Below, one piece after another: positions 7,379-25,651 of a stretch of DNA of 25,651 bases (positions are counted from its first letter, which is position 1; every line of letters begins with the position of its first letter). Below the pieces are notes generated by a model that had not been told where the DNA came from, searched no databases, and worked only from the letters and a program-made list of their open reading frames with translations. The position numbers were made by a program, and so were the translations under genes. Location: positions 1 to 25,651 of the IMG/VR virus record IMGVR_UViG_2778261088_000004. One strand, written 5' to 3'. The DNA comes from a virus. Taxonomy: Duplodnaviria; Heunggongvirae; Uroviricota; Caudoviricetes.

Positions 7379-7380
7379 TA

Positions 7381-9604: not shown

Positions 9605-9610
9605 ATTAAT

Positions 9611-11000: not shown

Positions 11001-11075
11001 ACTACAGGTGCCCACCAGCACATACAGAAAATGATTGTTTCCACATCAAGGAGATTTTAATGTTTCACTGAAACA

Positions 11076-11213
11076 TTAAGTAAGCCAGTGCATAATTCCA
11101 TTTTTTACTGACCTTAAAAGCAAAATCAAAACGATGATGAGGATAATAGCCAGAATCTGGCTAATAATAGGCGCATCTAAAAATGCACTCAGGAACTGAA
11201 AAAAAGCGTTCAT
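11076..11213 (-). CDS. Candidate 45-aa hydrophobic peptide (MNAFFQFLSAFLDAPIISQILAIILIIVLILLLRSVKNGIMHWLT)
   Basis: Found by hand translation of the minus strand; AAGGAA lies 8 nt upstream of the ATG; single transmembrane helix; sits in an otherwise gene-poor gap. Confidence 0.3.
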   Translation of the reverse strand: MNAFFQFLSAFLDAPIISQILAIILIIVLILLLRSVKNGIMHWLT

Positions 11214-12075: not shown

Positions 12076-12432
12076 TTATGACCGTAAATTATTAGCGGAT
12101 TTTAAGCCATATTCACCGTTGTAGAAATTACTCATGTTCCATTCATTAGGAAGTTCTTTTCTGTCCAATGTATAGTGGCGCACGATATAACGATCTTCAT
12201 CTTCTTCGATGGACAGGCGGACATAGCCAATGTGAATCACCGATACGGGCGGTGTTCGTATTGCATAGATGTCGCGGAGATATACCGGCAGCTCGACAAA
12301 TGCATCAGGTGCATCTGTGATGCTCGTTTTTTCACAGTATTCATATAACGCATCGTTGATATTGTTAAGAGATTCATGATCGTATATTTCCAGGTAATTA
12401 CCGCGATCGCGATGGTACTCGATTTTAGCCAT
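12076..12432 (-). CDS. Hypothetical protein (118 aa), distal gene of a divergent two-gene operon
   Basis: ATG directly abuts the stop of the upstream gene (TGAATG), with AGGGG upstream; acidic; no family recognised. Confidence 0.6.
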   Translation of the reverse strand: MAKIEYHRDRGNYLEIYDHESLNNINDALYEYCEKTSITDAPDAFVELPVYLRDIYAIRTPPVSVIHIGYVRLSIEEDEDRYIVRHYTLDRKELPNEWNMSNFYNGEYGLKSANNLRS

Positions 12433-13017
12433 TCAAAATCCCCTGTTATCGTTTTGCATTTCTCTAATCCGGTTCAGAACTACTTCATGCTGGACTTGGA
12501 TAGCGGCTTTTTCGTTTTCAAGCCGGGCAATAGACATCTCTAATTCTTTGCTGTACCAGGCGAGCTGGGCCAGGTTCATCCGGTTGTGGTCGAGAGTTGG
12601 AGACACTTCGACGCGATCCCTTTCTTCCTGCTTTAATGAGAAGAGATTTATCTCATCCCTTGAGGAAAATTCAGCAACAATTTCTTGTTGATGATCCGGT
12701 CGCTGCGGCATCCTCGCCAGTATAAATGGCGGTTCTTTTGAAAACATGAATGTCGGTTCAGACCGTGTTTTTACCCAGCTTGCCTGCTGTCTTTCGGCAA
12801 GTTCACAGGCTTCATCATAGTTATCTGCCAAACAAAGCACGGATGGACGGTCCCACGCCCCACCATTCAGACAATAAACTACAATTTTCCCGTCAGGTTG
12901 TGTAACCCCATATGGATGGTCCCACCAGGCGTCCAGCTGAGCTTTAGAGCGTTTCTCGTTAGGAGTGCAGTCAAAATTTTTGGGCAATACAGGATCGAGA
13001 GGAATGCGGGCAGGCAT
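12433..13017 (-). CDS. Hypothetical protein (194 aa), proximal gene of a divergent two-gene operon
   Basis: ATG at 13017 with AAGGA 8 nt upstream; C-terminal coiled-coil-like segment; shares its upstream intergenic region with humD. Confidence 0.6.
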   Translation of the reverse strand: MPARIPLDPVLPKNFDCTPNEKRSKAQLDAWWDHPYGVTQPDGKIVVYCLNGGAWDRPSVLCLADNYDEACELAERQQASWVKTRSEPTFMFSKEPPFILARMPQRPDHQQEIVAEFSSRDEINLFSLKQEERDRVEVSPTLDHNRMNLAQLAWYSKELEMSIARLENEKAAIQVQHEVVLNRIREMQNDNRGF

Positions 13018-13152
13018 AGCTAATTCCTTATTAACTGATTGGCAACGAGGTTACGCTGATCCGTTGGTGATGAATAGTAGCAAAGAGCACAAAATCATCA
13101 GCGGTGGTTGATGTACGTAACGCGTTTGCACCAAAGGTGTCTCTTTAATGTA

Positions 13153-13172
13153 TACTGTATAAATGAACAGTA
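13153..13172 (+). promoter_or_regulatory. LexA (SOS) box TACTGTATAAATGAACAGTA
   Basis: CTGT-N8-ACAG with flanking TA/TA, close to the E. coli LexA consensus TACTGTATATATATACAGTA; 20 nt upstream of the humD ATG and overlapping a TATAAAT -10-like hexamer. Confidence 0.7.
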
Positions 13173-13191
13173 TTATTGAGGTGAAAACGCT

Positions 13192-13581
13192 ATGGGCTTC
13201 CCTTCTCCTGCGGCGGATTATGTTGAAAGCCGAATTTCTCTTGATCAGCAACTAATCAGGCATCCATCAGCAACCTACTTCATGCGGGCAGCTGATAGCC
13301 ATCACCGTGAGGGAATATTGCAGGGTGCTTTGCTGGTGGTTGATTCCTCGCTTACTCCGGTTGATGGTTCTCTGCTTGTGTGCGCTATGGAGGGTGAATA
13401 TCGCATAAAGAGATACAGGAAGTATCCGCGCCAGCACCTGGAGGATTTAAGCACCGGGAAGAAAGAGGCGTTACCAGTAGATGACGATGGATGCACGGGC
13501 AGTAATGCTGTTTTTGGTGTGATCACTCATGTCATCAATGATGCCCGAAGTGGGGAGTTTGATGATTGTCCGGTTATTTAA
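13192..13581 (+). CDS. humD: HumD, UmuD'-like SOS mutagenesis protein homolog (129 aa)
   Basis: GFPSPAADYVE...HPSATYF...FGVITHV aligns with the E. coli UmuD C-terminal domain; LexA box upstream; position before phd-doc as in P1. Confidence 0.85.
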   Translation: MGFPSPAADYVESRISLDQQLIRHPSATYFMRAADSHHREGILQGALLVVDSSLTPVDGSLLVCAMEGEYRIKRYRKYPRQHLEDLSTGKKEALPVDDDGCTGSNAVFGVITHVINDARSGEFDDCPVI

Positions 13582-13653
13582 GCTGCAAAGGGCTGGTGCT
13601 TTATGCCTGTGAGGTTTATAATTGTGTACACATAACGAGTACACGAGGTGTTT

Positions 13654-13875
13654 ATGCAATCCATTAACTTCCGTACCGCGCGCGGCAACCTTTCTGAAGT
13701 GCTCAACAATGTTGAAGCCGGGGAAGAGGTTGAAATCACCCGCAGAGGCCGTGAGCCAGCAGTAATTGTCAGCAAGGCTACTTTCGAAGCCTACAAAAAA
13801 GCGGCGCTGGATGCTGAATTTGCATCCCTGTTTGACACCCTGGACTCCACCAACAAGGAACTGGTTAACCGATAA
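13654..13875 (+). CDS. phd: Phd antitoxin (73 aa)
   Basis: [39 protein letters not shown]... recognised as P1 Phd; stop overlaps the doc start (TAATG). Confidence 0.9.
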
Positions 13876-14255
13876 TGAGGCATATATCACCGGAAGAACT
13901 TATTGCGCTTCATGATGCGAATATAAGCCGCTACGGCGGCCTGCCTGGCATGTCAGATCCGGGCAGGGCAGAGGCCATTATCGGGAGAGTTCAGGCCAGA
14001 GTTGCCTACGAAGAGATCACCGACCTTTTCGAAGTCTCCGCCACCTACCTGGTGGCTACAGCGAGAGGGCATATATTCAATGATGCCAATAAGCGTACCG
14101 CGCTAAACAGCGCGCTGCTATTTCTACGCCGTAACGGGGTGCAGGTATTTGATTCACCTGAACTGGCAGACCTTACTGTAGGCGCTGCGACTGGCGAGAT
14201 ATCTGTATCTTCTGTCGCCGACACGTTACGTAGATTGTATGGTTCTGCGGAGTAG
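13875..14255 (+). CDS. doc: Doc toxin (Fic-fold kinase, 126 aa)
   Basis: [22 protein letters not shown]...[11 protein letters not shown] (Fic-like motif) recognised as P1 Doc; coupled to phd. Confidence 0.9.
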
Positions 14256-14259
14256 ATTA

Positions 14260-14439
14260 ATGGCACGCAAATACAACAAATTGTCCCGTGAAGCGTTAAA
14301 GATGCTTCTTGATGGCGTGAGTCGCCGCGAGGTAAAGCAATACCTGGTTGGTAAGCAAATTGGAGCCAGGACTGCTATTGCTGTGTTATGCCGTCAGGAA
14401 ATGGTTGTGCTTAAACAGAGAATGCCGGGCAGCAGATAA
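14260..14439 (+). CDS. pdcA: PdcA-like small protein (59 aa from ATG 14260)
   Basis: Small ORF immediately after doc with GGAG upstream; named from P1 gene order (phd, doc, pdcA, pdcB), not from sequence recall. Confidence 0.45.
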   Translation: MARKYNKLSREALKMLLDGVSRREVKQYLVGKQIGARTAIAVLCRQEMVVLKQRMPGSR

Positions 14440-14466
14440 AGCCCAATCAGTGATGAAAGGTGTGAT

Positions 14467-15510
14467 GTGAAAGCCGTAATTACTCCCTTTGTACAAAAAG
14501 AGCTTGGCGTCGCCACATTCAAAGTGGATCAGGAAGTCAGAAAGCTGGTGGAGGCTGGCCGTAAATTTATTATGGAGCCGGTGCCGCGTGAGTTAATCGA
14601 GCACATGGACGACGGCCTCGTTGTTTCCGAGCAAACTATGGCAACAAATGAGGCGTTGCAGCCGTTTTTTAACAGCGATGAACTGTTTCGCCGTATTGGT
14701 GGAATTGACGCGCTGGTGGCGTGGTTGCGCAGGAAAGAGGGGCAATGCCAGGCCGCAGATCGTAGCTGGTGTGACAACCATATTGTCCACGCAGAACGAG
14801 ACAATAGCGCGGTGTTGTTGTGCTGGCATCACGATAACCATTACCGGATGCGTGGTTTTAATGAGCTGAAAGAAACGCTGCATAATAATCGCGTTAACTG
14901 GATACTGGATGTCGCCCGTCAGGAAATGGGGCTTTCAGATGGCCATGATTTAAGTATTCAGGAACTGTGCTGGTGGGCTTTCATGCGCAACATGATGCAC
15001 CTGATGCCGGAAGAAGTTTGCCGTATATCAATAAATAAGATGAAAGCCGCAACGCAGGATAGCGGACCTCTGAAAGAGGCGGATATTCGCCCGTATGACG
15101 ATCGCGCTACAGCATATGTTCAGATGATGGAAGAACGCGCCGCGCCGATGCGTGCAAAAGTATGCCCTGTGGATGTTGACTCCGACCCTGGCATGGCGCA
15201 TTTCAAAATACCAAAACTGCAATCGCTAAAATTACCTGAGTACATGGACTTTGTTGCTTCCCGTCCATGCTGTGGGTGTGGAGCGGCGGGAGCTGGCGCT
15301 CACATTACGCCTTATATCGTTCGTCATAGTCGATTATGCGCGCATGACATTTACGCAATTCCTCTGTGCCAGTCATGCCAGCGTGATATTGAGCGTGACC
15401 GCGATAATTGGGAGAAGACGCACGGTAGGCTGGCGATGCATCAACGATTGTTCTTTGATTACGCGCTTGGAGTCGGCGCTATCACAAGTCACTCGTCGAG
15501 TGTTAGATAA
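14467..15510 (+). CDS. pdcB: PdcB-like protein (347 aa) with Cys/His-rich HNH-like segments
   Basis: GTG start after AAAGGTG; segments [25 protein letters not shown] and CCGCG...LCQSCQ; named from P1 gene order. Confidence 0.55.
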
Positions 15511-15511
15511 A

Positions 15512-15528
15512 ATTGCTCTAATGTATTG
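15512..15528 (+). promoter_or_regulatory. C1 operator (ATTGCTCTAATGTATTG) upstream of lpa
   Basis: Matches the C1 operator consensus; followed by a TATTAT -10-like hexamer; consistent with C1 control of lpa in P1. Confidence 0.55.
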
Positions 15529-15598
15529 CTATTTCTTTAATCGAGGGTATTATATTCCACGTTGATTAGTTGACATGGGCTAATCAGTAGGTGACAGG

Positions 15599-16051
15599 AT
15601 GTTACTTAACTGGCAGGGACGCCACTTCATGGAAATAAATCACTCACGAATAACATCGTACGAGATTGCGGATTACATGATCCGCACTAAATCTCTTCTA
15701 TCAGCGAAAGAACTCGCAGCAATTCTTGAAAAGGAATACCCGCATCTGGATGTCGATAAGCGCGATGTTTATCTGCGCTTAAAGGCTATCGCTGTGTCTA
15801 AGTATTCGTCTGTTTTGATTGATGACAGTACACGCCCACGTAGATTTCAGATCCACTCTCTGAATCCTGAATTCTTTCGCCGTAGCCGCGCTCCGCGCCG
15901 GTTTGATGAAAAACTCCAGAACGAACTCTATATGACGCAGGACGAAAAGGAACGCCGGGAGCACCAGCCTTGGGTAATGGCGCGTCAACTTTTCAATAAG
16001 GTGGCCCGTCAGCACCGTCATTACGGTAATGCCACATCCGCACGTATCTGA
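15599..16051 (+). CDS. lpa: Late promoter activator Lpa-like protein (150 aa)
   Basis: Position between pdcB and pacA, size, and the upstream C1 operator match P1 lpa; sequence itself not independently recalled. Confidence 0.55.
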   Translation: MLLNWQGRHFMEINHSRITSYEIADYMIRTKSLLSAKELAAILEKEYPHLDVDKRDVYLRLKAIAVSKYSSVLIDDSTRPRRFQIHSLNPEFFRRSRAPRRFDEKLQNELYMTQDEKERREHQPWVMARQLFNKVARQHRHYGNATSARI

Positions 16052-16136
16052 TTGATTGCTTGCCCGTTCCGGGCCTTTTGACATGTGACTTTCGTTACCC
16101 TCGCGTCAAAAAGAGTTTTTACGAAAGGAAGCATAA

Positions 16137-17330
16137 GTGACCTGGGACGATCACAAGAAGAATTTTGCTCGCCTGGCGCGAGATGGTGGTTACACCATCG
16201 CACAGTATGCCGCCGAGTTTAATCTTAACCCTAATACTGCACGTCGTTATCTCCGTGCCTTCAAAGAAGACACCAGGACAGCGGACAGCCGCAAGCCAAA
16301 TAAGCCAGTCAGGAAGCCACTAAAAAGCATGATCATTGATCACTCTAATGATCAACATGCAGGTGATCACATTGCGGCTGAAATAGCGGAAAAACAAAGG
16401 GTTAATGCCGTTGTCAGTGCCGCAGTCGAGAATGCGAAGCGCCAAAATAAGCGCATAAATGATCGTTCTGATGATCATGACGTGATCACCCGCGCCCACC
16501 GGACCTTACGTGATCGCCTGGAACGCGACACCCTGGATGATGATGGTGAACGCTTTGAATTCGAAGCTGGCGATTACCTGATAGATAACGTTGAAGCGCG
16601 GAAGGCCGCGCGCGCTATGTTGCGTCGGTCCGGGGCCGATGTTCTGGAAACCACTCTTCTGGAAAAGTCTCTTTCTCATCTCCTTATGCTGGAGAACGCC
16701 AGGGATACGTGTATTCGTCTGGTGCAGGAAATGCGCGATCAGCAAAAAGACGATGATGAAGGGACTCCGCCTGAATATCGTATCGCGAGCATGCTAAACA
16801 GCTGTTCCGCGCAGATAAGCAGCCTGATCAACACCATTTACAGCATCCGGAATAACTATCGAAAAGAAAGCCGGGAGGCGGAAAAGCACGCTTTATCTAT
16901 GGGGCAAGCTGGCATTGTTAAGCTGGCATACGAACGAAAGCGTGAAAATAACTGGTCAGTGCTGGAAGCAGCTGAATTCATCGAGGCGCATGGCGGGAAA
17001 GTGCCGCCCCTGATGCTGGAGCAAATCAAAGCCGATCTGCGTGCTCCTAAGACAAATACCGATGATGAGGAAAGGCAAACTGCCGTCGGTGGCCCTTCTC
17101 TTGAAGATCTGGACAAAGTTGCGCGAGAACGGGCCGCCAACCGCCGCGCCGATGCCGCATTGTGGATTGAGCAGCGTAGGGAAGAAATCGCCGATATCGT
17201 TGATACAGGCGGTTATGGAGATGTTGATACTGAAGGTGTATCAAACGACCCATGGCTGGAACAAGACCTGGACGAAGACGAGGAGGAAGACGAAGAAGTT
17301 ACCCGCAAGCTATACGGGGATGATGATTAA
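16137..17330 (+). CDS. pacA: Terminase small subunit PacA (397 aa)
   Basis: GTG start after AAAGGAAG; N-terminus [28 protein letters not shown] recognised; contains the pac hexanucleotide cluster; acidic C-terminal tail. Confidence 0.85.
16331..16487. other. P1 pac packaging site: seven GATC-containing hexanucleotide elements (4 + 3) flanking the cleavage region
   Basis: GATC at 16331, 16338, 16350, 16365 and at 16461, 16473, 16484, within TGATCA/TGATCG-type hexamers inside the pacA 5' region. Confidence 0.8.
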
Positions 17331-18814
17331 TGGCCAGAAGTTGCGTAACGGATCCACGTTGGCGCGAGCTGGTGGCGCTATATCGTTATGACTGGATTGC
17401 GGCCGCTGATGTTTTGTTCGGCAAAACACCTACCTGGCAGCAGGATCTGATTATTGAGTCTGTGCAGGAACAGGGTAGCAAGACATCTGTTTCGTCTGGT
17501 CACGGTACCGGGAAATCAGACATGACTTCTATCATGATCATGTTGTTCATAATCATGTATCCCGGTGCCCGAGCCATTATCGTTGCGAACAAAATTCAGC
17601 AGGTAATGACCGGTATATTCAAGTACATCAAGATAAACTGGGCTACTGCCACCAGCCGTTTTCCATGGCTTGCTGATTATTTTGTTCTGACAGAAACCGC
17701 TTTCTATGAGGTTACTGGTAAAGGTGTATGGACTGTAGTACCGAAGGGCTTTCGTCTGGGAAGTGAAGAAGCTCTCGCCGGTGAACACGCAGATCATCTT
17801 CTGTATATTATCGATGAAGCCTCCGGTGTCAGTGATAGAGCTTTCGGTATCATCACCGGTGCTCTTACCGGACAGGATAACCGCATCTTATTGCTGTCAC
17901 AGCCTACACGCCCAAGCGGCTATTTCTACGATACTCACCATAAACTGGCCAAGCGTCCTGGTAACCCTGATGGCGTTTATACGGCGATCACGCTTAACAG
18001 TGAGGAATCACCGCTGGTAACGCCAGCATTTATCAAAATGAAGCTGGCGGAGTACGGCGGGCGTGATAACCCTATGTACATGATTAAGGTACGCGGACTA
18101 TTCCCTAAATCACAGGATGGCTTCCTTCTTGGACGTGATGAGGTTGAACGTGCGACGCGGCGGAAAGTCAAGATTGCCAAAGGATGGGGCTGGCTTGCAT
18201 GTGTGGACGTTGCTGGTGGTACGGGACGGGATAAGTCCGTTATCAATATCATGATGGTGTCCGGCCAGAGAAATAAACGCCGTGTAATCAACTATCGAAT
18301 GCTGGAATACACAGACGTTACAGAAACGCAGCTTGCCGCCAAAATTTTCGCAGAATGTAATCCTGAGCGATTCCCAAATATCACCATAGCGATAGACGGC
18401 GATGGGCTGGGTAAAGCAACGGCGGATCTGATGTACGAGTATTATGGTATTACCGTACAGCGTATACGCTGGGGTAAAAAGATGCATAGCCGTGAAGATA
18501 AGAGCCTGTACTTTGATAAGCGTGCTTATGCCAACGTTCAAGCCGCAGAGGCCGTAAAATCAGGTCGTATGAGACTGGATAAGGGTAATGAAACTATTGA
18601 GGAAGCGTCGAAAATCCCTGTAGGGATTAACTCCGCAGGTCAATGGAAGGTGATGAGTAAGGAGGATATGAAGAAAAAACTCAACCTGCACTCACCAGAC
18701 CATTGGGATACATATTGTTTCGCTATGCTGGCGGATTATGTTCCCCAGGATGAAGTGCTTAGCGTCGAAGACGAAGCGCAGGTAGATGAAGCTCTGGCAT
18801 GGCTTAATGAATAA
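17330..18814 (+). CDS. pacB: Terminase large subunit PacB (494 aa)
   Basis: ATG overlaps the pacA stop; Walker-A-like GHGTGKS near the N-terminus; size and position as in P1. Confidence 0.8.
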
Positions 18815-18838
18815 CTCATTGACCATGCCGGATGGAAA

Positions 18839-19690
18839 CTATTGCGCGCTTTCGGGGTTGTCGTTTACTGGCTGCCCCTTCTTAGTTTTACGGCTGCGCG
18901 TAACTGATGCGGCTGATTTGACCTTTTTCTCTTCGCGAGTGATGGCAATTTGTTTTTTTACATTTTCAATATCTGCCAGGCGATATATTTTTGCCTGCGG
19001 CCAGCGGTCGCAGATGATCGGTTCTATAGAGTCATAAAGGCTAAATTTTGCTTTCTCGAATTCACCGTTGATGATAATTCCATCACGGAGAGTTTCATCG
19101 CAGATAAACACACCACATAGCGGCACATGGTAACTAACTGATTTACCATCATTGTAGTTAGGGCTACTAGAAATGTAATGGACGCGCAGCATTGTTTCGC
19201 TAAAGCCGTGTACGCGCATACGGAATTTTTCATCCTCCGGGTACTGCTTCATTAGCTCTTTTGTTGCTTCCAGGTTCTCTATGTATTTCGCACTGTGCTC
19301 ATTGATCCCTGCGCTTTTCTGGATGCGAATGTCCTTATCAATCAGATGAATAATGCGGCCAGCGGTCATGTTGACGCTGTTCACAGCTTCTGTCTGATAA
19401 GTCGTAACCTTACGCACACCGCGAAGGATGTTAGGCACTGGATATAAAATAGTCTTTGGGATATTGAGGTCTGGGTACTGTTCCAGTTCCCGCGCCATTA
19501 AAGTCCATTTATCAATTTCAGCCTGAATGCTGTCCGTTTCTTTGAACGGCAGAACGACAACCGGGCGAACAGGACGACCGTCGCTGGCGGCATCAACGTG
19601 TTGGGCGCGTGCAACAGCTTTTTTTAGAAAGAGATCCCTGAAGCTGACGAACTCCTGGTACAGTTGTTCGCCGTAGACATAATTTATCAT
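18839..19690 (-). CDS. c1: C1 repressor of lysis (283 aa)
   Basis: 283-aa ORF convergent with pacB and followed by coi and the Op99 operator cluster, the P1 immC arrangement; C1 operator sites occur throughout the window. Confidence 0.8.
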   Translation of the reverse strand: MINYVYGEQLYQEFVSFRDLFLKKAVARAQHVDAASDGRPVRPVVVLPFKETDSIQAEIDKWTLMARELEQYPDLNIPKTILYPVPNILRGVRKVTTYQTEAVNSVNMTAGRIIHLIDKDIRIQKSAGINEHSAKYIENLEATKELMKQYPEDEKFRMRVHGFSETMLRVHYISSSPNYNDGKSVSYHVPLCGVFICDETLRDGIIINGEFEKAKFSLYDSIEPIICDRWPQAKIYRLADIENVKKQIAITREEKKVKSAASVTRSRKTKKGQPVNDNPESAQ

Positions 19691-19800
19691 TGATCCTCCT
19701 CCAGAATTGACATGGCCAACAACTCACAGCGGATTACACTGGGAGTTGTTGGCCACCATTATAGAAGGATCCAACGAAAATAATAGATTTATTAGTGCAT

Positions 19801-20010
19801 TTATTGTGAGTCTGGCTGGTTAGTGGCCATGAGATATTCGATTGTGTCAGTGAGATCATCCAGGTCGTCTTGGGTGATGCGGTACTCCTGATTGGATATC
19901 TTTGAGTAGTGTTCAGCAATGGCGCGGGCAGCGTCGGTTTCGGCGGGGTCTACAGATAAAGCGTTAGAGCAATGTCTAACGTCGTCGATGGTTGGTGGAA
20001 TGAAAGCCAT
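19801..20010 (-). CDS. coi: Coi, C1 inactivator (69 aa)
   Basis: 69-aa ORF immediately upstream of c1 on the same strand, downstream of Op99-type operators; matches P1 coi in size and position. Confidence 0.7.
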   Translation of the reverse strand: MAFIPPTIDDVRHCSNALSVDPAETDAARAIAEHYSKISNQEYRITQDDLDDLTDTIEYLMATNQPDSQ

Positions 20011-20248
20011 AATTATGCCTCACTGTATTGACAACACAGAGCCTGAAGCTCTGACCTACTGTTTCACCCATGATCCATGCTGGGGTAATCTAACAACATT
20101 GCGCTGTGTGTAAGATGAGCAATGCATAGCTGTAATGCCGTTGTATAAGGTTTCCCTGTTTGCTCATTTCCTTCTGAGCCGCTCTACAACGCTGAAGACA
20201 CATTAAATAGTGAATCCAAAGTCGTATTACGAAACGGCGGCAAAACTA

Positions 20249-20265
20249 TAATTTATTAGAGCAAT
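20249..20265 (-). promoter_or_regulatory. C1 operator (Op99-type), inverted orientation
   Basis: TAATTTATTAGAGCAAT is the reverse complement of ATTGCTCTAATAAATTA. Confidence 0.6.
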
Positions 20266-20331
20266 TGTCAAACAACAATGAAAAACAATCCAGTTTTTGG
20301 CTGGTGGAGTGGGATTTTTCTCTCAAAATTT

Positions 20332-20348
20332 ATTGCTCTAATAATTCT
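20332..20348 (+). promoter_or_regulatory. C1 operator (Op99-type) ATTGCTCTAATAATTCT
   Basis: Consensus match, 44 bp before loxP. Confidence 0.6.
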
Positions 20349-20391
20349 TGATTTTTATGCACAGCTGGACGTAAACTCCTCTTCGGACCTA

Positions 20392-20425
20392 ATAACTTCG
20401 TATAGCATACATTATACGAAGTTAT
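20392..20425 (+). other. loxP site (ATAACTTCGTATA-GCATACAT-TATACGAAGTTAT)
   Basis: Exact 34-bp loxP: two 13-bp inverted arms around the 8-bp asymmetric spacer. Confidence 0.97.
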
Positions 20426-20843
20426 CTTAGGGGTTATTGAACATGATCAATTTACCTGTAAATCCATACAGTTCAATACCTTATCAGGTCAAATAGTGAT
20501 CACTTGATCATTTGATCAAGGTTGCGCTACGTAAAATCTGCGAAATGTTGGCGGTGTTAGTCCTACAGATTTCGCGTAGCGCACTTAGCACCACCAATCA
20601 ATCAGAGGTGAAAAATGGGATATTCAGCTGCTAAAGTGTCCACTCATCTTGAGCTTGAGAAAAACCGTGGTTACTGGCGGGCAAAAGGGTTTGAGCGTGA
20701 TAGTTACCAACTGTCATTATCTCGCGGTGAAGAGAAAATAGAACGCACGCGCGGTCGCTGGCGTTCCTATGACGAGAACCATAAACAGGTAAAGGCAGAG
20801 CCGATCCTGTACACTTTACTTAAAACCATTATCTGAGTGTTAA

Positions 20844-21875
20844 ATGTCCAATTTACTGACCGTACACCAAAATTTGCCTGCATTACCGGTCGATGCAACG
20901 AGTGATGAGGTTCGCAAGAATCTGATGGACATGTTCAGGGATCGCCAGGCGTTTTCTGAGCATACCTGGAAAATGCTTCTGTCCGTTTGCCGGTCGTGGG
21001 CGGCATGGTGCAAGTTGAATAACCGGAAATGGTTTCCCGCAGAACCTGAAGATGTTCGCGATTATCTTCTATATCTTCAGGCGCGCGGTCTGGCAGTAAA
21101 AACTATCCAGCAACATTTGGGCCAGCTAAACATGCTTCATCGTCGGTCCGGGCTGCCACGACCAAGTGACAGTAATGCTGTTTCACTGGTCATGCGACGG
21201 ATCCGAAAAGAAAACGTTGATGCCGGTGAACGTGCAAAACAGGCACTGGCGTTCGAACGCACTGATTTCGACCAGGTTCGTTCACTCATGGAAAATAGCG
21301 ATCGCTGCCAGGATATACGTAATCTGGCATTTCTGGGGATTGCTTATAACACCCTGTTACGTATAGCCGAAATTGCCAGGATCAGGGTTAAAGATATCTC
21401 ACGTACTGACGGTGGGAGAATGTTAATCCATATTGGCAGAACGAAAACGCTGGTTAGCACCGCAGGTGTAGAGAAGGCACTTAGCCTGGGGGTAACTAAA
21501 CTGGTCGAGCGATGGATTTCTGTCTCTGGTGTGGCTGATGATCCGAATAACTACTTGTTTTGCCGTGTCAGAAAAAATGGTGTTGCCGCGCCATCTGCCA
21601 CCAGCCAGCTATCAACTCGCGCCCTGGAAGGGATTTTTGAAGCAACTCATCGATTGATTTACGGCGCTAAGGATGACTCTGGTCAGAGATACCTGGCCTG
21701 GTCTGGACACAGTGCCCGTGTCGGAGCCGCGCGAGATATGGCCCGCGCCGGAGTTTCAATACCGGAGATCATGCAAGCTGGTGGCTGGACCAACGTAAAT
21801 ATTGTCATGAACTATATCCGTAACCTGGATAGTGAAACGGGGGCAATGGTACGCCTGCTGGAAGATGGCGATTAG
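20844..21875 (+). CDS. cre: Cre site-specific tyrosine recombinase (343 aa)
   Basis: Translation MSNLLTVHQNLPALPVDATSDEVRKNLMDMFRDRQAFSEHTWKMLLSVCRSWAAWCKLNNRKWFPAEPEDVRDYLLYLQARGLAVKTIQQHLGQLNMLHRRSGLPRPSDSNAVSLVMRRIRKENVDAGERAKQALAFERTDFDQVRSLMENSDRCQDIRNLAFLGIAYNTLLRIAEIARIRVKDISRTDGGRMLIHIGRTKTLVSTAGVEKALSLGVTKLVERWISVSGVADDPNNYLFCRVRKNGVAAPSATSQLSTRALEGIFEATHRLIYGAKDDSGQRYLAWSGHSARVGAARDMARAGVSIPEIMQAGGWTNVNIVMNYIRNLDSETGAMVRLLEDGD matches Cre as I know it; loxP lies 420 bp upstream. Confidence 0.97.
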   Translation: MSNLLTVHQNLPALPVDATSDEVRKNLMDMFRDRQAFSEHTWKMLLSVCRSWAAWCKLNNRKWFPAEPEDVRDYLLYLQARGLAVKTIQQHLGQLNMLHRRSGLPRPSDSNAVSLVMRRIRKENVDAGERAKQALAFERTDFDQVRSLMENSDRCQDIRNLAFLGIAYNTLLRIAEIARIRVKDISRTDGGRMLIHIGRTKTLVSTAGVEKALSLGVTKLVERWISVSGVADDPNNYLFCRVRKNGVAAPSATSQLSTRALEGIFEATHRLIYGAKDDSGQRYLAWSGHSARVGAARDMARAGVSIPEIMQAGGWTNVNIVMNYIRNLDSETGAMVRLLEDGD

Positions 21876-21892
21876 CCGTTCATTTGCGCTTG

Positions 21893-21909
21893 ATTGCTCT
21901 AATTATTTG
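21893..21909 (+). promoter_or_regulatory. C1 operator-like site (ATTGCTCTAATTATTTG) between cre and cra
   Basis: Consensus match. Confidence 0.5.
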
Positions 21910-21925
21910 ATATTTATGGTGACGC

Positions 21926-22237
21926 ATGCGGAAGGATTTCAAAATAGACGGAAAATATGTGGTGCTGTCTGTAAGCTCTCAAATTCAGTCACCATCTGTC
22001 ATTGTCACCGTAAAATTGAGCGATAGGATGCCTGATATCGACTCGATATCTGTTGCGTTCCCCGTTAAAAGCATGCGGAGCGCTGAACATTTTGTGATGA
22101 ATGCAACGGAGGAGGAAGCGCGGCGCGGGCTTACTAGAGTGATGGCGGAATTTGGCGAACTCCTGGGTAAGGTAAACAATGCCCTTTCAATCAGTTCAGC
22201 AAGATCCAAAGCGTTAACAGCTTCCATGATGAAATAA
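21926..22237 (+). CDS. cra: Cra-like (cre-associated) protein, 103 aa
   Basis: ORF directly after cre and before ref, as in P1; named by position. Confidence 0.55.
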   Translation: MRKDFKIDGKYVVLSVSSQIQSPSVIVTVKLSDRMPDIDSISVAFPVKSMRSAEHFVMNATEEEARRGLTRVMAEFGELLGKVNNALSISSARSKALTASMMK

Positions 22238-22367
22238 AAAAGCCTGGCAAGGAGCCAGGCTGCACAAAAGAGCGGGTTTGTATTCCGCATCCAATCAATC
22301 AAGAAGGAGTATAGCACACAGGTACTGAAGTGAAAAAATGTGATTCGCGATAAACAAAATATCTACC

Positions 22368-22397
22368 ATTGCTCTAATTGATTGCTATAATTGAGCC
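22368..22397 (+). promoter_or_regulatory. Two overlapping C1 operators (ATTGCTCTAATTGATTG and ATTGCTATAATTGAGCC) with embedded TATAAT -10
   Basis: Tandem consensus matches; perfect TATAAT at 22386-22391; consistent with C1-repressed ref expression. Confidence 0.55.
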
Positions 22398-22451
22398 GCA
22401 GTTTTTGTCAACTACGAAGACGTTGCCATTACTTCACTCCTTGACATCATT

Positions 22452-22477
22452 GGCGGCCATTAGGCCGCCTTTTTTTT
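22452..22477 (+). terminator. Terminator-like hairpin (GGCGGCC / loop ATTA / GGCCGCC + T8) in the ref leader
   Basis: 7-bp all-GC stem plus 8 T, ending 5 nt before the ref ATG and downstream of the operator/promoter. Confidence 0.5.
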
Positions 22478-22482
22478 GCCAT

Positions 22483-23043
22483 ATGAAAACAATCGAACAA
22501 AAACTTGAACAGCGCCGCGAGTGGCAGAAGGCAGCCAGAGAACGAGCGATCGCTCGGCAACGGGAAAAGTTGGCTGACCCCGCCTGGCGAGAATCGCAAT
22601 ATCAGAAAATGCGGGATTCTATCGACCGCCGTATCGCTAAACAGAAAGAGCGCCCACCAGCCAGCAAAACGCGGAAAAGTGCGGTAAAGATAAAATCTCG
22701 TGGCTTGAAGGGGCGAACACCGACAGCGGAGGAACGGAGCATCGCCAGTGCTCTTGGCGCTCTCCCCTGCATTGCCTGCTACATGCATGGAGTAATATCT
22801 GAAGAGGTATCTTTGCACCATATCTCCGGTCGTACCGCGCCGGGTTGTCACAAAAAGCAATTGCCCCTTTGTAGATGGCACCACCAGCATGCAGCACCGG
22901 CTGAAGTAAGAGAAAAATATCCCTGGCTGGTCCCTGTTCATGCCGATGGTGTGGTTGGAGGCAAGAAAGAATTCACCTTGCTGAACAAGTCAGAGATGGA
23001 GTTGCTGGCTGACGCCTATGAGATGGCAAACATTATGCACTAA
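22483..23043 (+). CDS. ref: Ref, recombination enhancement function (HNH-type RecA-dependent nuclease), 186 aa
   Basis: ATG 22483 (MKTIEQKLEQ...); basic N-terminus; HNH-like CIACYMHG...HHISGR...CHKKQLPLCRWHH; position after cre-cra; C1 operators upstream. The track's TTG at 22378 lies inside the operator. Confidence 0.75.
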   Translation: MKTIEQKLEQRREWQKAARERAIARQREKLADPAWRESQYQKMRDSIDRRIAKQKERPPASKTRKSAVKIKSRGLKGRTPTAEERSIASALGALPCIACYMHGVISEEVSLHHISGRTAPGCHKKQLPLCRWHHQHAAPAEVREKYPWLVPVHADGVVGGKKEFTLLNKSEMELLADAYEMANIMH

Positions 23044-23231
23044 TAAATATATTATTTTTAATCTGAAATAATTGACAACTGACAAGTGACTTCAGTCAGA
23101 ATCATCACATGCCCGGTACGGATGGATCCCTTTTCAAATATTCCATGGACGGCACAGTCTGAGTACCGGGCGCTACCTTTTGTTGTATTGCTAAGCCGCC
23201 GCTGGTGGCTTTTCTTTTTTGTAGGGGCGCT

Positions 23232-23543
23232 ATGGATAAGAAAATATGCGTTGTTTCGATGAGCGTCGGCAAACCGGCGTCAATGACTGCTGCATGGATC
23301 AACAACGAGCTGATAATGGCTGAGCGGACCAGCTACCCTGAACGCCGCCGCGATATGGAACTCCAGTTGCTGCGCGAATTGCGTGAGAAAGAGGAAAAAG
23401 GTTTTATCGTGCTGGTGGAAGAGGAAAACAGCTTTATTACTGGTCGAGTTGGCCAGCGTGTAAGGTTGCGCGATCCCTTCATGAACGGCAGGCCGGTCCT
23501 AATTGAGGCAATGCAGATTTATAAGGAGCTGGAACGCCAGAAA
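23232..23543 (+). pseudogene. 5' fragment (about 104 codons) of an unidentified gene, interrupted by the transposon end
   Basis: ORF from ATG 23232 (MDKKICVVSMSVGKP...) runs in frame into the inverted repeat beginning at 23544; the track's 157-aa ORF 23205-23678 is therefore chimeric. Confidence 0.4.
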
Positions 23544-23624
23544 GGGGTCGTTTGCGGGAGAGGGCGAAATCCTACGCTAAGGCTTTGGCCAACGATATTC
23601 TCCGGTAAGATTGATGTGTTCCCA
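23544..23624. mobile_element. Tn5393-type (Tn3-family) terminal inverted repeat, strB-proximal end
   Basis: Begins GGGGTCGTTTGCGGGAG (Tn3-family ends start GGGG); lies about 25 bp beyond the strB stop, as at the right end of Tn5393; recalled from memory, no alignment run. Confidence 0.55.
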
Positions 23625-23649
23625 GGGGATAGGAGAAGTCGCTTGATAT

Positions 23650-24486
23650 CTAGTATGACGTCTGTCGCACCTGCTTGATCGCGGCCGCGATAGCTAGATC
23701 GCGTTGCTCCTCTTCTCCATCCGCGTTCCAAGCTGCGGAAAGGCACCCATAAGCGTACGCCTGGTCGAGCAGGCGACGCGGATCGACGTCCAGCGCACGA
23801 GAGAATGCGTCCGCCATCTGTGCAATGCGTCTAGGATCGAGACAAAGGTCGTCTCTGTCAGCCGGATCGTAGAACATATTGGCGGCGCCAAAGCCCACTT
23901 CACCGACCAGACCGACGGGATCTATCACCAGCCAGCCGCGACTGGAGAACATGATGTTTTCATGATGCAGATCGCCATGTAGCCCACGCAGTTCCGAGGC
24001 ATTGCTCATCATTTGATCGGCTATAATCGCCGCGTGGACGTAGTCAGTTTGACAACCTGCGTTTTGATCATCGCGCGCCCGCTGAAACAAAGCTGCAAAG
24101 CGATCCCGGATCGGGAGAAGGGCAGAAGGCAGGGGTTCCTCAGATGCGGCATACAGCTTCGCCATTAGTTCCGCTGCAATTTCGGTCGCCTGGTAGTCGC
24201 CGTGCTCGGCAACGATGTGAGAGAGCATTCGCTCCCCGGCATATTCGAGCAACATCAGATTGTTCTCACGACCGAGCAACCGGACTGCTCCCCTCCCATT
24301 GCGCCATACCAGATAGTCGGCCCCGCGCAGTTCATCAGCAATGTCTTCTATAGGTTTCAATCCCTTGACGATTGCAGGAGTCCCGTCTGGCAATGAAACT
24401 TTCCAAACGAGGCTGGAAAAGGTGTCCGCAATGAGAACAGGTTGCGAAACGTGCCAATGAGCAGGAAAAACAGGCGGCATGAACAT
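23650..24486 (-). CDS. strB: Aminoglycoside 6-phosphotransferase APH(6)-Id, StrB (278 aa)
   Basis: Translation MFMPPVFPAHWHVSQPVLIADTFSSLVWKVSLPDGTPAIVKGLKPIEDIADELRGADYLVWRNGRGAVRLLGRENNLMLLEYAGERMLSHIVAEHGDYQATEIAAELMAKLYAASEEPLPSALLPIRDRFAALFQRARDDQNAGCQTDYVHAAIIADQMMSNASELRGLHGDLHHENIMFSSRGWLVIDPVGLVGEVGFGAANMFYDPADRDDLCLDPRRIAQMADAFSRALDVDPRRLLDQAYAYGCLSAAWNADGEEEQRDLAIAAAIKQVRQTSY is recognised as StrB; start overlaps the strA stop by 1 nt. Confidence 0.95.
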   Translation of the reverse strand: MFMPPVFPAHWHVSQPVLIADTFSSLVWKVSLPDGTPAIVKGLKPIEDIADELRGADYLVWRNGRGAVRLLGRENNLMLLEYAGERMLSHIVAEHGDYQATEIAAELMAKLYAASEEPLPSALLPIRDRFAALFQRARDDQNAGCQTDYVHAAIIADQMMSNASELRGLHGDLHHENIMFSSRGWLVIDPVGLVGEVGFGAANMFYDPADRDDLCLDPRRIAQMADAFSRALDVDPRRLLDQAYAYGCLSAAWNADGEEEQRDLAIAAAIKQVRQTSY

Positions 24487-25289
24487 CAACCCCAAGTCAG
24501 AGGGTCCAATCGCAGATAGAAGGCAAGGCGTTCGCGGTCGGGGGCTTCGATCCCCAATACATTGAATAGGACAGCGAAGGCGCGCTCTGCTTCATCTGGC
24601 GCTGCCCAGTTCTCTTCGGCGTTAGCAATCATGAGTGCCAAATCGGCATAGCGATCTGCTGTTCCGAGCCGCCCAAGGTCGATCAGACCCGTGCATTGAA
24701 GAGTTTTAGGGTCCACCATGAAGTTCGGCATGCAGGGATCACCATGGCAAACAACCATATCGGTGCGCTCTTGGTCGAGCCGCACCGGTAGCTCTCGTTC
24801 GACACGAGCCAAAAGATCGAGCTGCGGCGTACTCTTGTCCTCGTCCGGTAAGAAGTCGGGATTGACGGCATTGCGGGACACCACATCAACGGCGCGTCCG
24901 AACATTCGCGACAGCCTGCGCTCAAACGGACATTGATCAACCGATAGGCTGTGAACAGCGCCAAGTTGCTGCCCCATTGACGGCCACGCTTTGAGCAAAT
25001 CCGCTCCAGACAGATCAGCCGCCGGTACTCCCGGAATTGCCGTTATCACCAAGCATGCACCCTCCTGTTCCTCCTGCCAGTTGATCACCTCGGGGCAAGC
25101 CACACCTCGACCTTTGAGCCAAATGAGGCGGTCACGCTCTCCAGCGAGCTCACCGCGGCGGGAAGCAGGTGCGATTTTCGCGAAGGCATGCCCGTCACCA
25201 CGTCGAAAAACAAAATCACCAGATTCTCCGCCTCTGACAGGCAACCAGTCAGAATGCGATTCACCAAAAAAAATATTAGTTCGATTCAA
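24486..25289 (-). CDS. strA: Aminoglycoside 3''-phosphotransferase APH(3'')-Ib, StrA (267 aa)
   Basis: Translation MNRTNIFFGESHSDWLPVRGGESGDFVFRRGDGHAFAKIAPASRRGELAGERDRLIWLKGRGVACPEVINWQEEQEGACLVITAIPGVPAADLSGADLLKAWPSMGQQLGAVHSLSVDQCPFERRLSRMFGRAVDVVSRNAVNPDFLPDEDKSTPQLDLLARVERELPVRLDQERTDMVVCHGDPCMPNFMVDPKTLQCTGLIDLGRLGTADRYADLALMIANAEENWAAPDEAERAFAVLFNVLGIEAPDRERLAFYLRLDPLTWG is recognised as StrA; upstream of strB on the same strand. Confidence 0.95.
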   Translation of the reverse strand: MNRTNIFFGESHSDWLPVRGGESGDFVFRRGDGHAFAKIAPASRRGELAGERDRLIWLKGRGVACPEVINWQEEQEGACLVITAIPGVPAADLSGADLLKAWPSMGQQLGAVHSLSVDQCPFERRLSRMFGRAVDVVSRNAVNPDFLPDEDKSTPQLDLLARVERELPVRLDQERTDMVVCHGDPCMPNFMVDPKTLQCTGLIDLGRLGTADRYADLALMIANAEENWAAPDEAERAFAVLFNVLGIEAPDRERLAFYLRLDPLTWG

Positions 25290-25651
25290 TGGAGGTTCCT
25301 TCAGTTTTCTGATGAAGCGCGGAGGTGGCTCAACCTGCGAAAAGAAACGAGTTGCTACGTAAGTCCGAGAACATGCTTTCCATGGTCTTGCACCGGTTGT
25401 GTTCCGGTCTATCTCTCATTTTAAGCGGCTTTTTTCTCAAATGCCACCGGCGATTTCCAGCCGAGTGCTGATGAATCCCCTAATGATTTTTATCAAAATC
25501 ATTAAGTTAAGGTAGATACACATCTTGTCATATGATCAAATGGTTTCGCCAAAAATCAATAATCAGACAACAAAATGTGCGAACTCGATATTTTACACGA
25601 CTCTCTTTACCAATTCTGCCCCGAATTACACTTAAAACGACTCAACAGCTT

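What the first reader, a model, noticed from the sequence alone, without database searches (positions are those of the whole stretch)
23044..25651. Streptomycin-resistance module (strB-strA) with a Tn5393-type end embedded in a P1-like phage-plasmid next to ref
Two minus-strand ORFs translate to proteins I recognise as APH(6)-Id (StrB) and APH(3'')-Ib (StrA), overlapping by 1 nt. A sequence starting GGGGTCGTTTGCGGGAG at 23544 looks like the Tn5393 terminal inverted repeat on the 3' side of strB. The module is visibly GC-richer than the backbone and begins about 500 bp after ref, where P1 as I remember it continues with mat-res-mod. A phage-plasmid carrying aminoglycoside resistance can move the genes by lysogeny and transduction. 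The 362 bp upstream of strA (25290-25651) is non-coding in this window; the usual upstream partner (sul2 in RSF1010-type clusters, tnpR in intact Tn5393) would lie beyond the window end.
Basis: partly seen in the sequence, partly recalled or inferred. Interest (0 to 1): 0.75.

Follow-up and report, generated by a model that had tools for sequence, protein, structure and literature searches.

The report
Streptomycin-resistance transposon arm in P1 plasmid
An E. coli P1-type phage-plasmid has had its mat gene split by the streptomycin-resistance end of a well-known transposon (the type found on plasmid R64), which is real but an ordinary new instance of an already documented way that resistance genes enter these elements.

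Summary
strB (23650-24486, minus) and strA (24486-25289, minus) are intact reference alleles that overlap by 1 nt. The complete 81-bp Tn5393 terminal repeat starts at 23544.

- The repeat lies inside P1 mat. Only codons 1-104 of 213 remain, fused to 44 foreign codons.
- The 362 bp upstream of strA is not empty. It holds a tnpR stub, the last 79 bp of IS1133, a Tn10 target duplication, and 184 bp of IS10 with RNA-OUT.
- The window is a whole draft contig (NNXM01000062.1, E. coli). It breaks in IS26 on the left and IS10 on the right.

Window 23542-25651 is 100% identical to plasmid R64, whose element is published as Tn5393l (Tn5393 + IS1133::Tn10). The contig stops in IS10 exactly where an assembler using 77-base words would meet a second, slightly different IS10, so a whole Tn10 (tetB) probably follows.

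P1-like phage-plasmids with Tn5393-IS1133-strAB (pET6.1-IncY), Tn3-family insertions at ref/mat, and other mat disruptions are already on record. This is a new member of a known kind, of low interest. Classical genetics reports mat as essential for lytic growth, so phage-borne spread is doubtful, not assured.

The parts
1..77 (+). Right end of IS26: the last 25 nt of its transposase gene plus the terminal repeat ...TTGCAACAGTGCC. The contig starts here.
   Evidence: Exact 77-nt match to both IS26 copies in MH445380, next to their 705-bp transposase genes. Backbone matches of almost all P1-like records begin at window 78.
78..23543 (+). P1-type phage-plasmid backbone: 3' part of pmgQ, pmgR/S, a variable region, humD, phd-doc, pdcB, lpa, pacA, pacB, c1(-), cra, cre (20844-21875), c8, ref (22483-23043), the mat promoter region and the 5' half of mat.
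   Evidence: 95% coverage at about 98% identity to E. coli P1-like plasmids, and 84% at 97% to P1 isolates. Gene lengths equal those in P1: PacA 397, PacB 494, C1 283, Cre 343, Ref 186 aa. Window 78 corresponds to P1 81803, inside pmgQ.
23232..23678 (+). Truncated mat (Mat'). Codons 1-104 (23232-23543) are native. They are followed by 44 codons read from the transposon repeat and the antisense strand of the strB 3' end, then a stop codon.
   Evidence: Residues 1-104 are identical to the 213-aa Mat of pET6.1-IncY and MH445380, then diverge. The protein is a singleton cluster, WP_440939771.1, labelled E. coli.
23539..23543 (.). AGAAA: the 5 bp of P1 sequence next to the repeat. These are the expected copy of a Tn3-family 5-bp target duplication. 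The boundary is uncertain by 1 nt, because P1 also has a G at the next position.
   Evidence: Alignment of the window, P1 and R64 across the junction. The second copy cannot be checked because the other end is not in the window.
23544..23624 (+). Complete 81-bp right terminal inverted repeat of Tn5393.
   Evidence: Identical to R64's right repeat. 77/81 match to R64's left repeat, with similarity ending at position 81.
23650..24486 (-). strB = aph(6)-Id, 278 aa, intact.
   Evidence: NCBIfam APH_6 equivalog at 386 bits (cut-off 325). 100% DNA identity to the R64 gene, which AMRFinder scores as 100% aph(6)-Id.
24486..25289 (-). strA = aph(3'')-Ib, 267 aa, TTG start, intact. Its stop codon overlaps the strB ATG by 1 nt.
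   Evidence: NCBIfam APH_3pp_Ib at 638 bits (cut-off 600), full length. 100% DNA identity to R64.
25290..25388 (-). Tn5393 sequence upstream of strA. It includes the last 34 nt of tnpR (25355-25388, stop codon TAG at 25355-25357).
   Evidence: tnpR-bearing Tn5393 contexts match up to 25388 and sul2/RSF1010-type contexts only to 25321. tnpR position taken from NZ_CP061974.
25389..25467 (-). Remnant of the 3' end of IS1133 (last 14 codons of its transposase, the stop codon and the right repeat). The inner boundary may be 25383, because the repeat ...CAAGACCA overlaps bases also present in IS-free Tn5393. It contains a promoter-like site pointing at strA (25447 to 25418).
   Evidence: Identical to the 3' end of the annotated 'IS3-like element IS1133 family transposase' locus of pET6.1-IncY. 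IS1133 repeats seen in R64 (pair I4). Promoter-like match 9/12.
25459..25467 (.). AGCCGAGTG: one copy of the 9-bp target duplication made when Tn10 entered IS1133.
   Evidence: In R64 its reverse complement, CACTCGGCT, directly flanks both outer ends of Tn10. The window is identical to the strA-side copy.
25468..25651 (+). Outside end of IS10 (first 184 nt; transposase ATG at 25575). The contig stops here.
   Evidence: 100% identical to the IS10 copy next to strA in R64, at all six sites where R64's two IS10 copies differ. ISVsa5/IS10 transposase is annotated at this position in all plasmid hits. Also matches an annotated IS10 in EF120459.
25513..25582 (-). RNA-OUT, the antisense RNA of IS10. 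Its promoter (pOUT) fires outward, in the direction of strA-strB.
   Evidence: Rfam RF00240, 97.3 bits (gathering score 41), full model 1-70.

Best explanation
The window is a complete short-read contig from an E. coli draft genome. It shows 23.5 kb of a P1-type phage-plasmid. The mat gene of that element has been split by one end of a Tn5393-family (Tn3-type) streptomycin-resistance transposon.

The arm visible here runs, from the outside in:
- the right terminal repeat
- strB, then strA
- a tnpR stub
- the end of IS1133
- the left IS10 of Tn10

This arm is base-for-base the same as in plasmid R64, whose element is published as Tn5393l.

Most likely history:
- Tn10 had already inserted into the IS1133 of a Tn5393. 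This is shown by the shared 9-bp duplication.
- The composite element then transposed from a plasmid into mat, using the Tn5393 transposase acting on its 81-bp ends. This is inferred from the complete repeat ending exactly at the P1 breakpoint.
- The rest of it (Tn10 with tetB, the 5' part of IS1133, tnpR, tnpA, the left repeat, then the 3' half of mat) probably lies on other contigs.

Expected function:
- StrA and StrB phosphorylate streptomycin and make the host resistant, as this same arrangement does in R64.
- Transcription probably comes from the IS1133 remnant and/or IS10 pOUT (inferred).
- The price is a broken mat gene, which probably weakens or abolishes production of infectious P1 particles.
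- The resistance genes are therefore carried mainly by a plasmid-like prophage, not by a proven transducing phage.
For: Identity of the module:
- 2,110 bases are 100% identical to R64.
- strA and strB pass curated family models at full length.
- The 81-bp repeat is verified against both R64 ends.
- The IS1133 remnant is verified against an annotated IS1133.
- IS10 is verified by Rfam RNA-OUT and by alignment.
- The Tn10 9-bp duplication is present on both sides in R64.
- The R64 element is described as Tn5393l, carrying IS1133 and Tn10 (PMC6361801; PMC10333595).

Backbone and breakpoint:
- P1-like plasmids cover 78-23543 at about 98% identity.
- P1 homology ends inside mat.
- Mat' keeps residues 1-104 of 213.

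The junction is real:
- An independent Logan assembly of SRR3993885 gives an identical sequence across it.
- The two sides share no repeat that could mislead an assembler.

More IS10 lies beyond the window:
- The contig holds exactly 77 nt of IS26.
- It ends at IS10 position 184, which is the last site that differs between R64's two IS10 copies (107) plus 77.

Precedent:
- pET6.1-IncY, a P1 subgroup-1 phage-plasmid, carries tnpR-IS1133-strA-strB between c8 and ref.
- Tn1721-blaCTX-M-27 lies between ref and mat in SJ46/P1-CTX.

The host is labelled E. coli.
Against: - Only one transposon end is in the window. The 5-bp target duplication, tnpA, Tn10 and the 3' half of mat were not seen.
- A search with the missing Mat C-terminus found no fragment that starts at the breakpoint.
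- The run behind the Logan contig may be the same read set as the NCBI assembly. If so, it shows independence from the assembler, not from the sample.
- The Logan contig stops inside strB, near window 23940, for an unknown reason.
- Only 23.5 kb of roughly 95 kb of P1 is visible, so the integrity of the rest of the phage-plasmid is unknown.
- Streptomycin resistance is inferred from identity with R64 and was not measured. That R64 confers streptomycin and tetracycline resistance is established knowledge recalled by me, not verified in a paper read here.
- The effect of losing mat is uncertain. The gene is listed as essential, yet knockdown gave a plating efficiency of 0.28.
Confidence: 0.85

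Rival explanations
1. Only this arm (repeat-strB-strA-IS1133 remnant-IS10) is joined to P1. After the original transposition, IS10 or IS26 caused deletion, inversion or cointegration. In that case the P1 segment in the window is a fragment within a larger mosaic plasmid, an unresolved P1-plasmid cointegrate or the chromosome, and not part of an intact phage-plasmid.
For: - The contig is bounded by IS26 on one side and IS10 on the other, and holds only 23.5 kb of P1.
- The other junction was not found.
- P1-like elements rearranged by IS26 or fused with plasmids are documented (PMC6906374; Table S1 of PMC11117986).
- tnpR of the R64-type element is altered at its 3' end by IS1133. This could hinder resolution of cointegrates.
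Against: - All backbone genes visible in the window have full P1 lengths and P1 gene order, as in a recently functional element.
- The contig ends are explained simply by repeat copy number at k=77 and do not need any rearrangement.
- The IS26 breakpoint is in the nonessential gene pmgQ.
Confidence: 0.25
2. The junction between mat and the transposon repeat is an assembly chimera that joins reads from a P1-like plasmid and from an unrelated strAB-bearing plasmid.
For: - It is a short-read draft contig.
- strAB modules are often present in several copies.
- The junction occurs nowhere else: 0 of 72,556 plasmids, 0 of 5,426 complete E. coli genomes, and 0 in the phage, viral-contig and species-representative genome collections.
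- Its fusion protein is a singleton.
Against: - Two different assemblers give the same junction, base for base.
- The two sides share at most 1-3 bases, so there is no repeat through which a graph could cross.
- The break falls exactly at the first base of a complete transposon repeat, as real transposition predicts and as random misjoining would not.
Confidence: 0.03
3. The genes are present but silent, because the insertions upstream of strA (IS1133, then Tn10) separate them from their promoter. One Tn5393 variant is reported to behave this way.
For: [quoted passage not shown] In the window only 178 bp of non-IS10 sequence remains upstream of strA.
Against: - The whole upstream region to the window end is identical to R64. 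R64 is a classical streptomycin- and tetracycline-resistance plasmid (established knowledge, not tested here).
- Insertion sequences upstream of strAB raise resistance, according to the review.
- A promoter-like site in the IS1133 remnant and IS10 pOUT (RNA-OUT) both point toward strA.
Confidence: 0.07

Closest known systems
Tn5393l of IncI1 plasmid R64 (AP005147 / NC_005014): Tn5393 with IS1133 interrupted by Tn10
   Same: Window 23542-25651 is 100% identical over 2,110 bases. The match covers the right repeat, strB, strA, the tnpR stub, the IS1133 end, the 9-bp Tn10 duplication and the strA-side IS10 variant.
   Different: The target differs: R64's copy sits in IS2 within the ars region of a conjugative plasmid, while here the repeat abuts P1 mat. 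Tn10, tnpR, tnpA and the left repeat are not visible in the window.
pET6.1-IncY (NZ_CP043218), an E. coli O80:H26 P1 subgroup-1 phage-plasmid listed by Pfeifer et al. 2022
   Same: A P1-type IncY phage-plasmid that carries tnpR-IS1133-strA-strB of Tn5393 in the cre-c8-ref-mat neighbourhood.
   Different: - There the resistance region lies between c8 and ref and mat is intact (213 aa).
- IS1133 is whole and sits 25 bp closer to strA.
- The right repeat is cut by Tn2 carrying blaTEM-1.
- There is no IS10.
SJ46 / P1-CTX and relatives: Tn1721-blaCTX-M-27 in P1-like phages
   Same: A Tn3-family resistance transposon inserted at the ref/mat locus of a P1-like element by transposition (PMC11117986).
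   Different: That insertion is described as lying between ref and mat, and the phage is inducible, forms plaques and transduces. It is also a different transposon carrying a different resistance gene. Here the mat coding sequence itself is split.
Other P1-like elements with mat disrupted by mobile elements (CAKEHY010000027.1 in GCA_917083495.1; the P0021 cluster)
   Same: Mat switches to foreign sequence because of an insertion. One case is a Tn3-family transposase plus resolvase at about residue 152. Another is a gene with an IS3-type integrase domain (likely an insertion sequence) at about residue 155, in a cluster of 235 member sequences.
   Different: Different elements and different positions within mat. 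No strAB was seen in the parts of those contigs that I read.

Membership tests
APH(3'')-Ib (StrA) | Full-length match to the allele-specific NCBIfam model NF032895 above its curated cut-off | tested here: met
   637.7 bits against a cut-off of 600, residues 1-267 of 267. DNA is 100% identical to the R64 gene, which AMRFinder scores as 100% aph(3'')-Ib.
APH(6)-Id (StrB) | Full-length match to the APH(6)-I equivalog model and identity to the reference allele | tested here: met
   385.9 bits against a cut-off of 325. DNA is 100% identical to the R64 gene for WP_000480968.1, scored as 100% aph(6)-Id.
APH(3'')-Ib / APH(6)-Id | Confers streptomycin resistance (enzyme activity and expression) | not testable with these tools
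   Inferred from identity of the genes and of 362 bp upstream with R64. No MIC is available.
Tn5393 (Tn3-family unit transposon) | 81-bp terminal inverted repeat beginning GGGG, with strB next to the right repeat | tested here: met
   23544-23624 equals R64's right repeat and matches the left repeat at 77/81, with similarity ending at position 81. The strB stop codon lies 26 bp inside the repeat.
Tn5393 (Tn3-family unit transposon) | Own transposition module: tnpA, res and tnpR | tested here: not met
   Within the window only the last 34 nt of tnpR remain. tnpA and res are absent from the window. They may lie beyond IS10 as in R64, but this was not seen. The window therefore holds an arm of a Tn5393-type element, not a demonstrably complete transposon.
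Tn5393 (Tn3-family unit transposon) | 5-bp target-site duplication flanking both ends | not testable with these tools
   One candidate copy, AGAAA, lies at 23539-23543. The other end is not in the window and was not found.
Tn5393l (the R64 variant) | Tn10 inserted in IS1133 with the 9-bp duplication CACTCGGCT | tested here: met
   This was tested for the strA-side junction only. The junction is identical, including the duplication copy at 25459-25467 and the strA-side IS10 variant. The far-side junction and tet(B) are outside the window.
IS10 / Tn10 | IS10 outside end with RNA-OUT and the transposase start | tested here: met
   184 nt are 100% identical to IS10 of R64. Rfam RNA-OUT scores 97 bits. 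The ATG at 25575 is followed by the same bases as in both R64 IS10 copies.
IS10 / Tn10 | Two IS10 copies flanking tetR-tetA(B) | tested here: inconclusive
   The contig ends at IS10 position 184 = 107 + 77. This fits a second IS10 copy that differs at position 107, as in Tn10 of R64. No tet gene is visible.
P1-like phage-plasmid (Punavirus, IncY) | P1 gene order and high identity across conserved phage genes | tested here: met
   Tested for the 23.5 kb present: pmgS, phd-doc, lpa, pacAB, c1, cre, c8, ref and mat, at 97-99% identity to P1-like plasmids and phages.
P1-like phage-plasmid (Punavirus, IncY) | Plasmid replicon (repA/parAB), a lytic replicon, and complete head and tail genes, meaning a complete and inducible element | not testable with these tools
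   These regions lie outside the contig. mat is interrupted and pmgQ is cut by IS26.
IS26 | Terminal repeat GGCACTGTTGCAAA and the 3' end of tnp26 | tested here: met
   77-nt exact match to two IS26 copies in MH445380. Only the end is present in the window.

The most novel reading that the evidence does not exclude
The insertion makes a natural mat-null P1-like element. Other mat disruptions turned up in the same search: a Tn3-family insertion in another E. coli genome, and an insertion flanked by an IS3-type integrase gene whose fusion protein has 235 member sequences. Together these would mean one of two things. Either mat is dispensable for propagation of natural P1-like phages, contrary to classical genetics. 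Or a sizeable share of resistance-carrying 'phage-plasmids' are really phage-dead plasmids, caught on the way from phage-plasmid to plasmid.
Probability: 0.3. Interest if true: 0.4.

Novelty: new member of a known kind. Interest (0 to 1): 0.22.

Why it matters
It adds one more documented route by which a very common streptomycin-resistance module, probably linked to tetracycline resistance, has entered a P1-type phage-plasmid in E. coli. That supports the published picture that the cre-ref-mat-res region of these elements collects resistance transposons.

Its practical value is mainly as a caution. The resistance genes are real, but the carrier's ability to spread them as a phage cannot be assumed, because the insertion breaks a gene reported to be needed for particle maturation. 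Counts of 'resistance genes on phages' drawn from draft assemblies should check for such damage.

Tried and rejected
Searches that found nothing:
- The exact mat::repeat junction was sought in species-representative genomes and viral contigs, and by BLAST in plasmids and complete E. coli genomes. There were no hits, so no second occurrence and no closed reference exist.
- I tried to find the other junction (left repeat - AGAAA - 3' half of mat) with a protein search using the missing Mat C-terminus and a predicted junction peptide. No fragment starts at the breakpoint. The predicted reading frame also has no start codon, so a gene would probably not have been called there anyway.
- The literature held no mention of the accession or the run.
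- The primary paper on mat (Lehnherr 2001, PMC95297) is not held. Its conclusion is cited second-hand through PMC10695390.

Ideas considered and rejected:
- RSF1010/sul2-type or Tn6029-type context: rejected, because those contexts diverge from the window at 25321.
- MH445380 (a 126-kb P1 isolate) as a possible strAB carrier: rejected. It carries aadA-type genes, and its second match to the query is not strAB.

A technical note: the Python sandbox could not see several fetched loci, so the alignments were made with DNA alignment.
Full report
WHAT IS THERE

- strB occupies 23650-24486 on the minus strand (278 aa, ATG start).
- strA occupies 24486-25289 on the minus strand (267 aa, TTG start).
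- The strA stop codon and the strB start codon share one base.
- StrA passes NCBI's allele-specific APH(3'')-Ib model over its whole length (638 bits, cut-off 600). StrB passes the APH(6)-I equivalog model (386 bits, cut-off 325).
- The stretch is G+C-richer than the backbone: 0.55-0.60 against 0.37-0.53.
- GGGGTCGTTTGCGGGAG starts at 23544.

THE TRANSPOSON END

Plasmid R64 carries a complete element of this type.
- Window 23544-23624 is identical to R64's right terminal repeat.
- It matches R64's left repeat at 77 of 81 positions, and similarity stops immediately after position 81.
- In all, window 23542-25651 (2,110 bases) is 100% identical to R64.
- About 70 plasmids in PLSDB cover this same stretch from the repeat to the window end, and every one of those listed is 100% identical.

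THE BACKBONE AND THE BREAKPOINT

Window 78-23543 is a P1-type phage-plasmid.
- It has 95% coverage at about 98% identity to E. coli P1-like plasmids, and 84% at 97% to P1 isolates.
- Genes present include pmgS, phd-doc, lpa, pacA, pacB, c1, cre, c8 and ref. Those checked against P1 (PacA, PacB, C1, Cre, c8, Ref) have the P1 lengths.

P1 homology ends at P1 coordinate 3139, inside mat (annotated at 2716-3468).
- Around the break, P1 reads ...CCAGAAAG|CGAT...
- The window reads ...CCAGAAA|GGGGTCGTTTGCGGG...
- R64 shares only the transposon side.

In close relatives Mat is 213 aa. Its first 104 residues are identical to the window's ORF, which begins at 23232 and then runs on into 44 foreign codons. 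The 500 bp between ref and the repeat is therefore the mat promoter region plus the first half of mat, and the transposon end lies within the gene.

UPSTREAM OF strA

- sul2/RSF1010-type contexts diverge from the window at 25321. Tn5393 contexts that carry tnpR diverge at 25388.
- The last 34 nt of tnpR lie at 25355-25388.
- 25389-25467 is identical to the 3' end of the annotated IS1133 of plasmid pET6.1-IncY.
- 25459-25467 (AGCCGAGTG) is the reverse complement of CACTCGGCT, the 9-bp sequence that flanks both outer ends of Tn10 in R64.
- From 25468 to the window end is the outside end of IS10. It matches the R64 copy next to strA at 100%. It is independently recognised by Rfam as RNA-OUT at 25513-25582 on the minus strand, at 97 bits against a gathering score of 41.

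In R64 the full order is left repeat, tnpA, tnpR, IS1133 interrupted by Tn10 (tetB), strA, strB, right repeat. This element is published as Tn5393l (PMC6361801; PMC10333595). The 'usual upstream partner' is therefore not beyond the window. What lies beyond is IS10.

NATURE OF THE WINDOW

The window is the entire contig NNXM01000062.1 (25,651 bp) of assembly GCA_002486265.1. NCBI labels the Mat fusion protein as E. coli.

Both contig ends fall in insertion sequences.
- Its first 77 bases are an exact IS26 end. The breakpoint maps to P1 81803, inside pmgQ, a gene scored nonessential.
- Its last 184 bases are IS10.

R64's two IS10 copies differ at positions 24, 25, 27, 47, 83 and 107 from the outer end, and then not again until position 203.
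- The window has the strA-side variant at all six sites.
- It stops at position 184, which is 107 + 77.
- Together with the 77-nt IS26 overlap, this is the signature of a 77-mer assembly graph breaking at repeats.
- It implies that the genome holds a second IS10 that differs at position 107, as a whole Tn10 would provide.
- This is inference. No tet gene is visible.

IS THE JUNCTION REAL?

- A Logan assembly of run SRR3993885 produced a 12.4-kb contig that is identical to the window across the junction.
- The two sides share at most 1-3 bases, so there is no repeat that could cause a misjoin.
- The break coincides with the first base of a complete transposon repeat.
- A chimera is therefore very unlikely.
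- The run may be the same read set as the NCBI assembly, so this is not an independent sample.
- The junction occurs nowhere else in the phage, plasmid, complete E. coli genome, viral-contig or species-representative genome collections. The fusion protein is a singleton among about 15 billion sequences.

HOW IT MOST LIKELY WORKS

Shown:
- Both resistance genes are intact reference alleles.
- Their upstream region is identical to that of R64.

Inferred:
- The host is streptomycin-resistant, as hosts of R64 are (established knowledge, not measured here).
- Transcription probably starts in the IS1133 remnant, where a promoter-like site points at strA (25447 to 25418). It may also come from IS10 pOUT, which fires outward toward strA.
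- Insertion sequences upstream of strAB are reported to raise resistance.
- The composite element reached mat by Tn3-type transposition, because a complete repeat ends exactly at the breakpoint.
- The remainder of the element, including tetB, probably follows on other contigs.

CONSEQUENCE FOR THE PHAGE

- Piya et al. (PMC10695390) list mat among known essential P1 genes, citing Lehnherr 2001. Their own knockdown lowered plating only to 0.28.
- Losing the C-terminal 51% of Mat therefore probably impairs production of infectious particles, but this is not certain.
- By contrast, the Tn1721-blaCTX-M-27 insertion in P1-CTX/SJ46 lies between ref and mat, and that phage is inducible and transduces.

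COMPARISON WITH WHAT IS KNOWN

- Phage-plasmids of the P1 group often carry resistance genes in a few hot spots next to transposable elements, especially IS26 (PMC9600943).
- That paper's Table S1 lists NZ_CP043218 (pET6.1-IncY), a P1 subgroup-1 element carrying aph(3'')-Ib and strB. I confirmed that it holds tnpR-IS1133-strA-strB between c8 and ref.
- A survey table lists ref and mat as loci where Tn1721 and Tn3 join resistance genes to P1. It also lists P1-plasmid fusions carrying aph(6)-Id and aph(3'')-Ib.
- A P1-like element has been shown to lysogenise commensal E. coli under streptomycin selection (PMC6906374).
- Searching with the missing Mat C-terminus also revealed other natural mat disruptions. 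One is a Tn3-family transposase plus resolvase at about residue 152 in GCA_917083495.1. Another lies next to a gene with an IS3-type integrase domain at about residue 155, and its fusion protein has 235 member sequences.

VERDICT

The finding is real and well described, but ordinary. A published resistance module sits in a published kind of carrier, at a new position within a known insertion neighbourhood. I rate it a new member of a known kind, with interest of about 0.2.

The only mildly open point is whether natural mat-null P1-like elements still work as phages. An induction and lysogenisation test of this isolate, with and without mat supplied in trans, would settle that.

Noticed in passing
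window 1-77: The contig begins with exactly 77 nt of an IS26 end. The backbone breakpoint maps to P1 81803, inside pmgQ, a gene scored nonessential both by knockdown and by deletion.
   Followed up: yes
window 25468-25651 and 1-77: Both contig ends fit breaks in a 77-mer assembly graph: 77 nt of IS26 on the left, and IS10 up to position 184 = 107 + 77 on the right. This implies several IS26 copies and at least two non-identical IS10 copies in the genome.
   Followed up: yes
window 23086-23262 and 23232 onward: The P1 reference annotates a 250-aa Mat starting further upstream (P1 2716). In the window that upstream frame closes at 23260, and the open frame starts at ATG 23232, as in the 213-aa Mat of MH445380 and pET6.1-IncY. 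The reference start may therefore not be general.
   Followed up: partly
window 25355-25395; L011 5245-5352: IS1133 sits at two different positions relative to the tnpR stop codon. The R64/window type and the pET6.1 type are 25 bp apart. About 420 PLSDB records show the gapped (pET6.1-like) form.
   Followed up: partly
L008 (R64) 4148-4186 and 4185-4265: R64 has an extra partial copy (39 nt) of the Tn5393 left terminal repeat immediately outside the true left repeat, overlapping it by two bases.
   Followed up: no
L015 6001-9464 (CAKEHY010000027.1); L013/L014 (P0021): Other P1-like contigs have mat interrupted by mobile elements. One carries a Tn3-family transposase plus resolvase at about Mat residue 152. 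Another has a gene with an IS3-type integrase domain at about residue 155, and its fusion protein has 235 member sequences. A third fragment (P0017) carries a foreign N-terminus.
   Followed up: partly
L004 (Logan SRR3993885_210), end of contig = window ~23940: The independent assembly stops inside strB, about 290 nt from its 3' end, for no visible reason. Possible causes are a second, slightly different strB copy in the genome or a coverage gap.
   Followed up: no
window ~2600-12000: The P1 reference covers only about half of the backbone part of the window (52%), while natural P1-like plasmids cover up to 95%. Their annotations under the match include ead/Ea22-like and DUF551 proteins. I did not locate the uncovered stretch. 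It probably falls in the pmgT-humD variable region described for P1-like plasmids.
   Followed up: no
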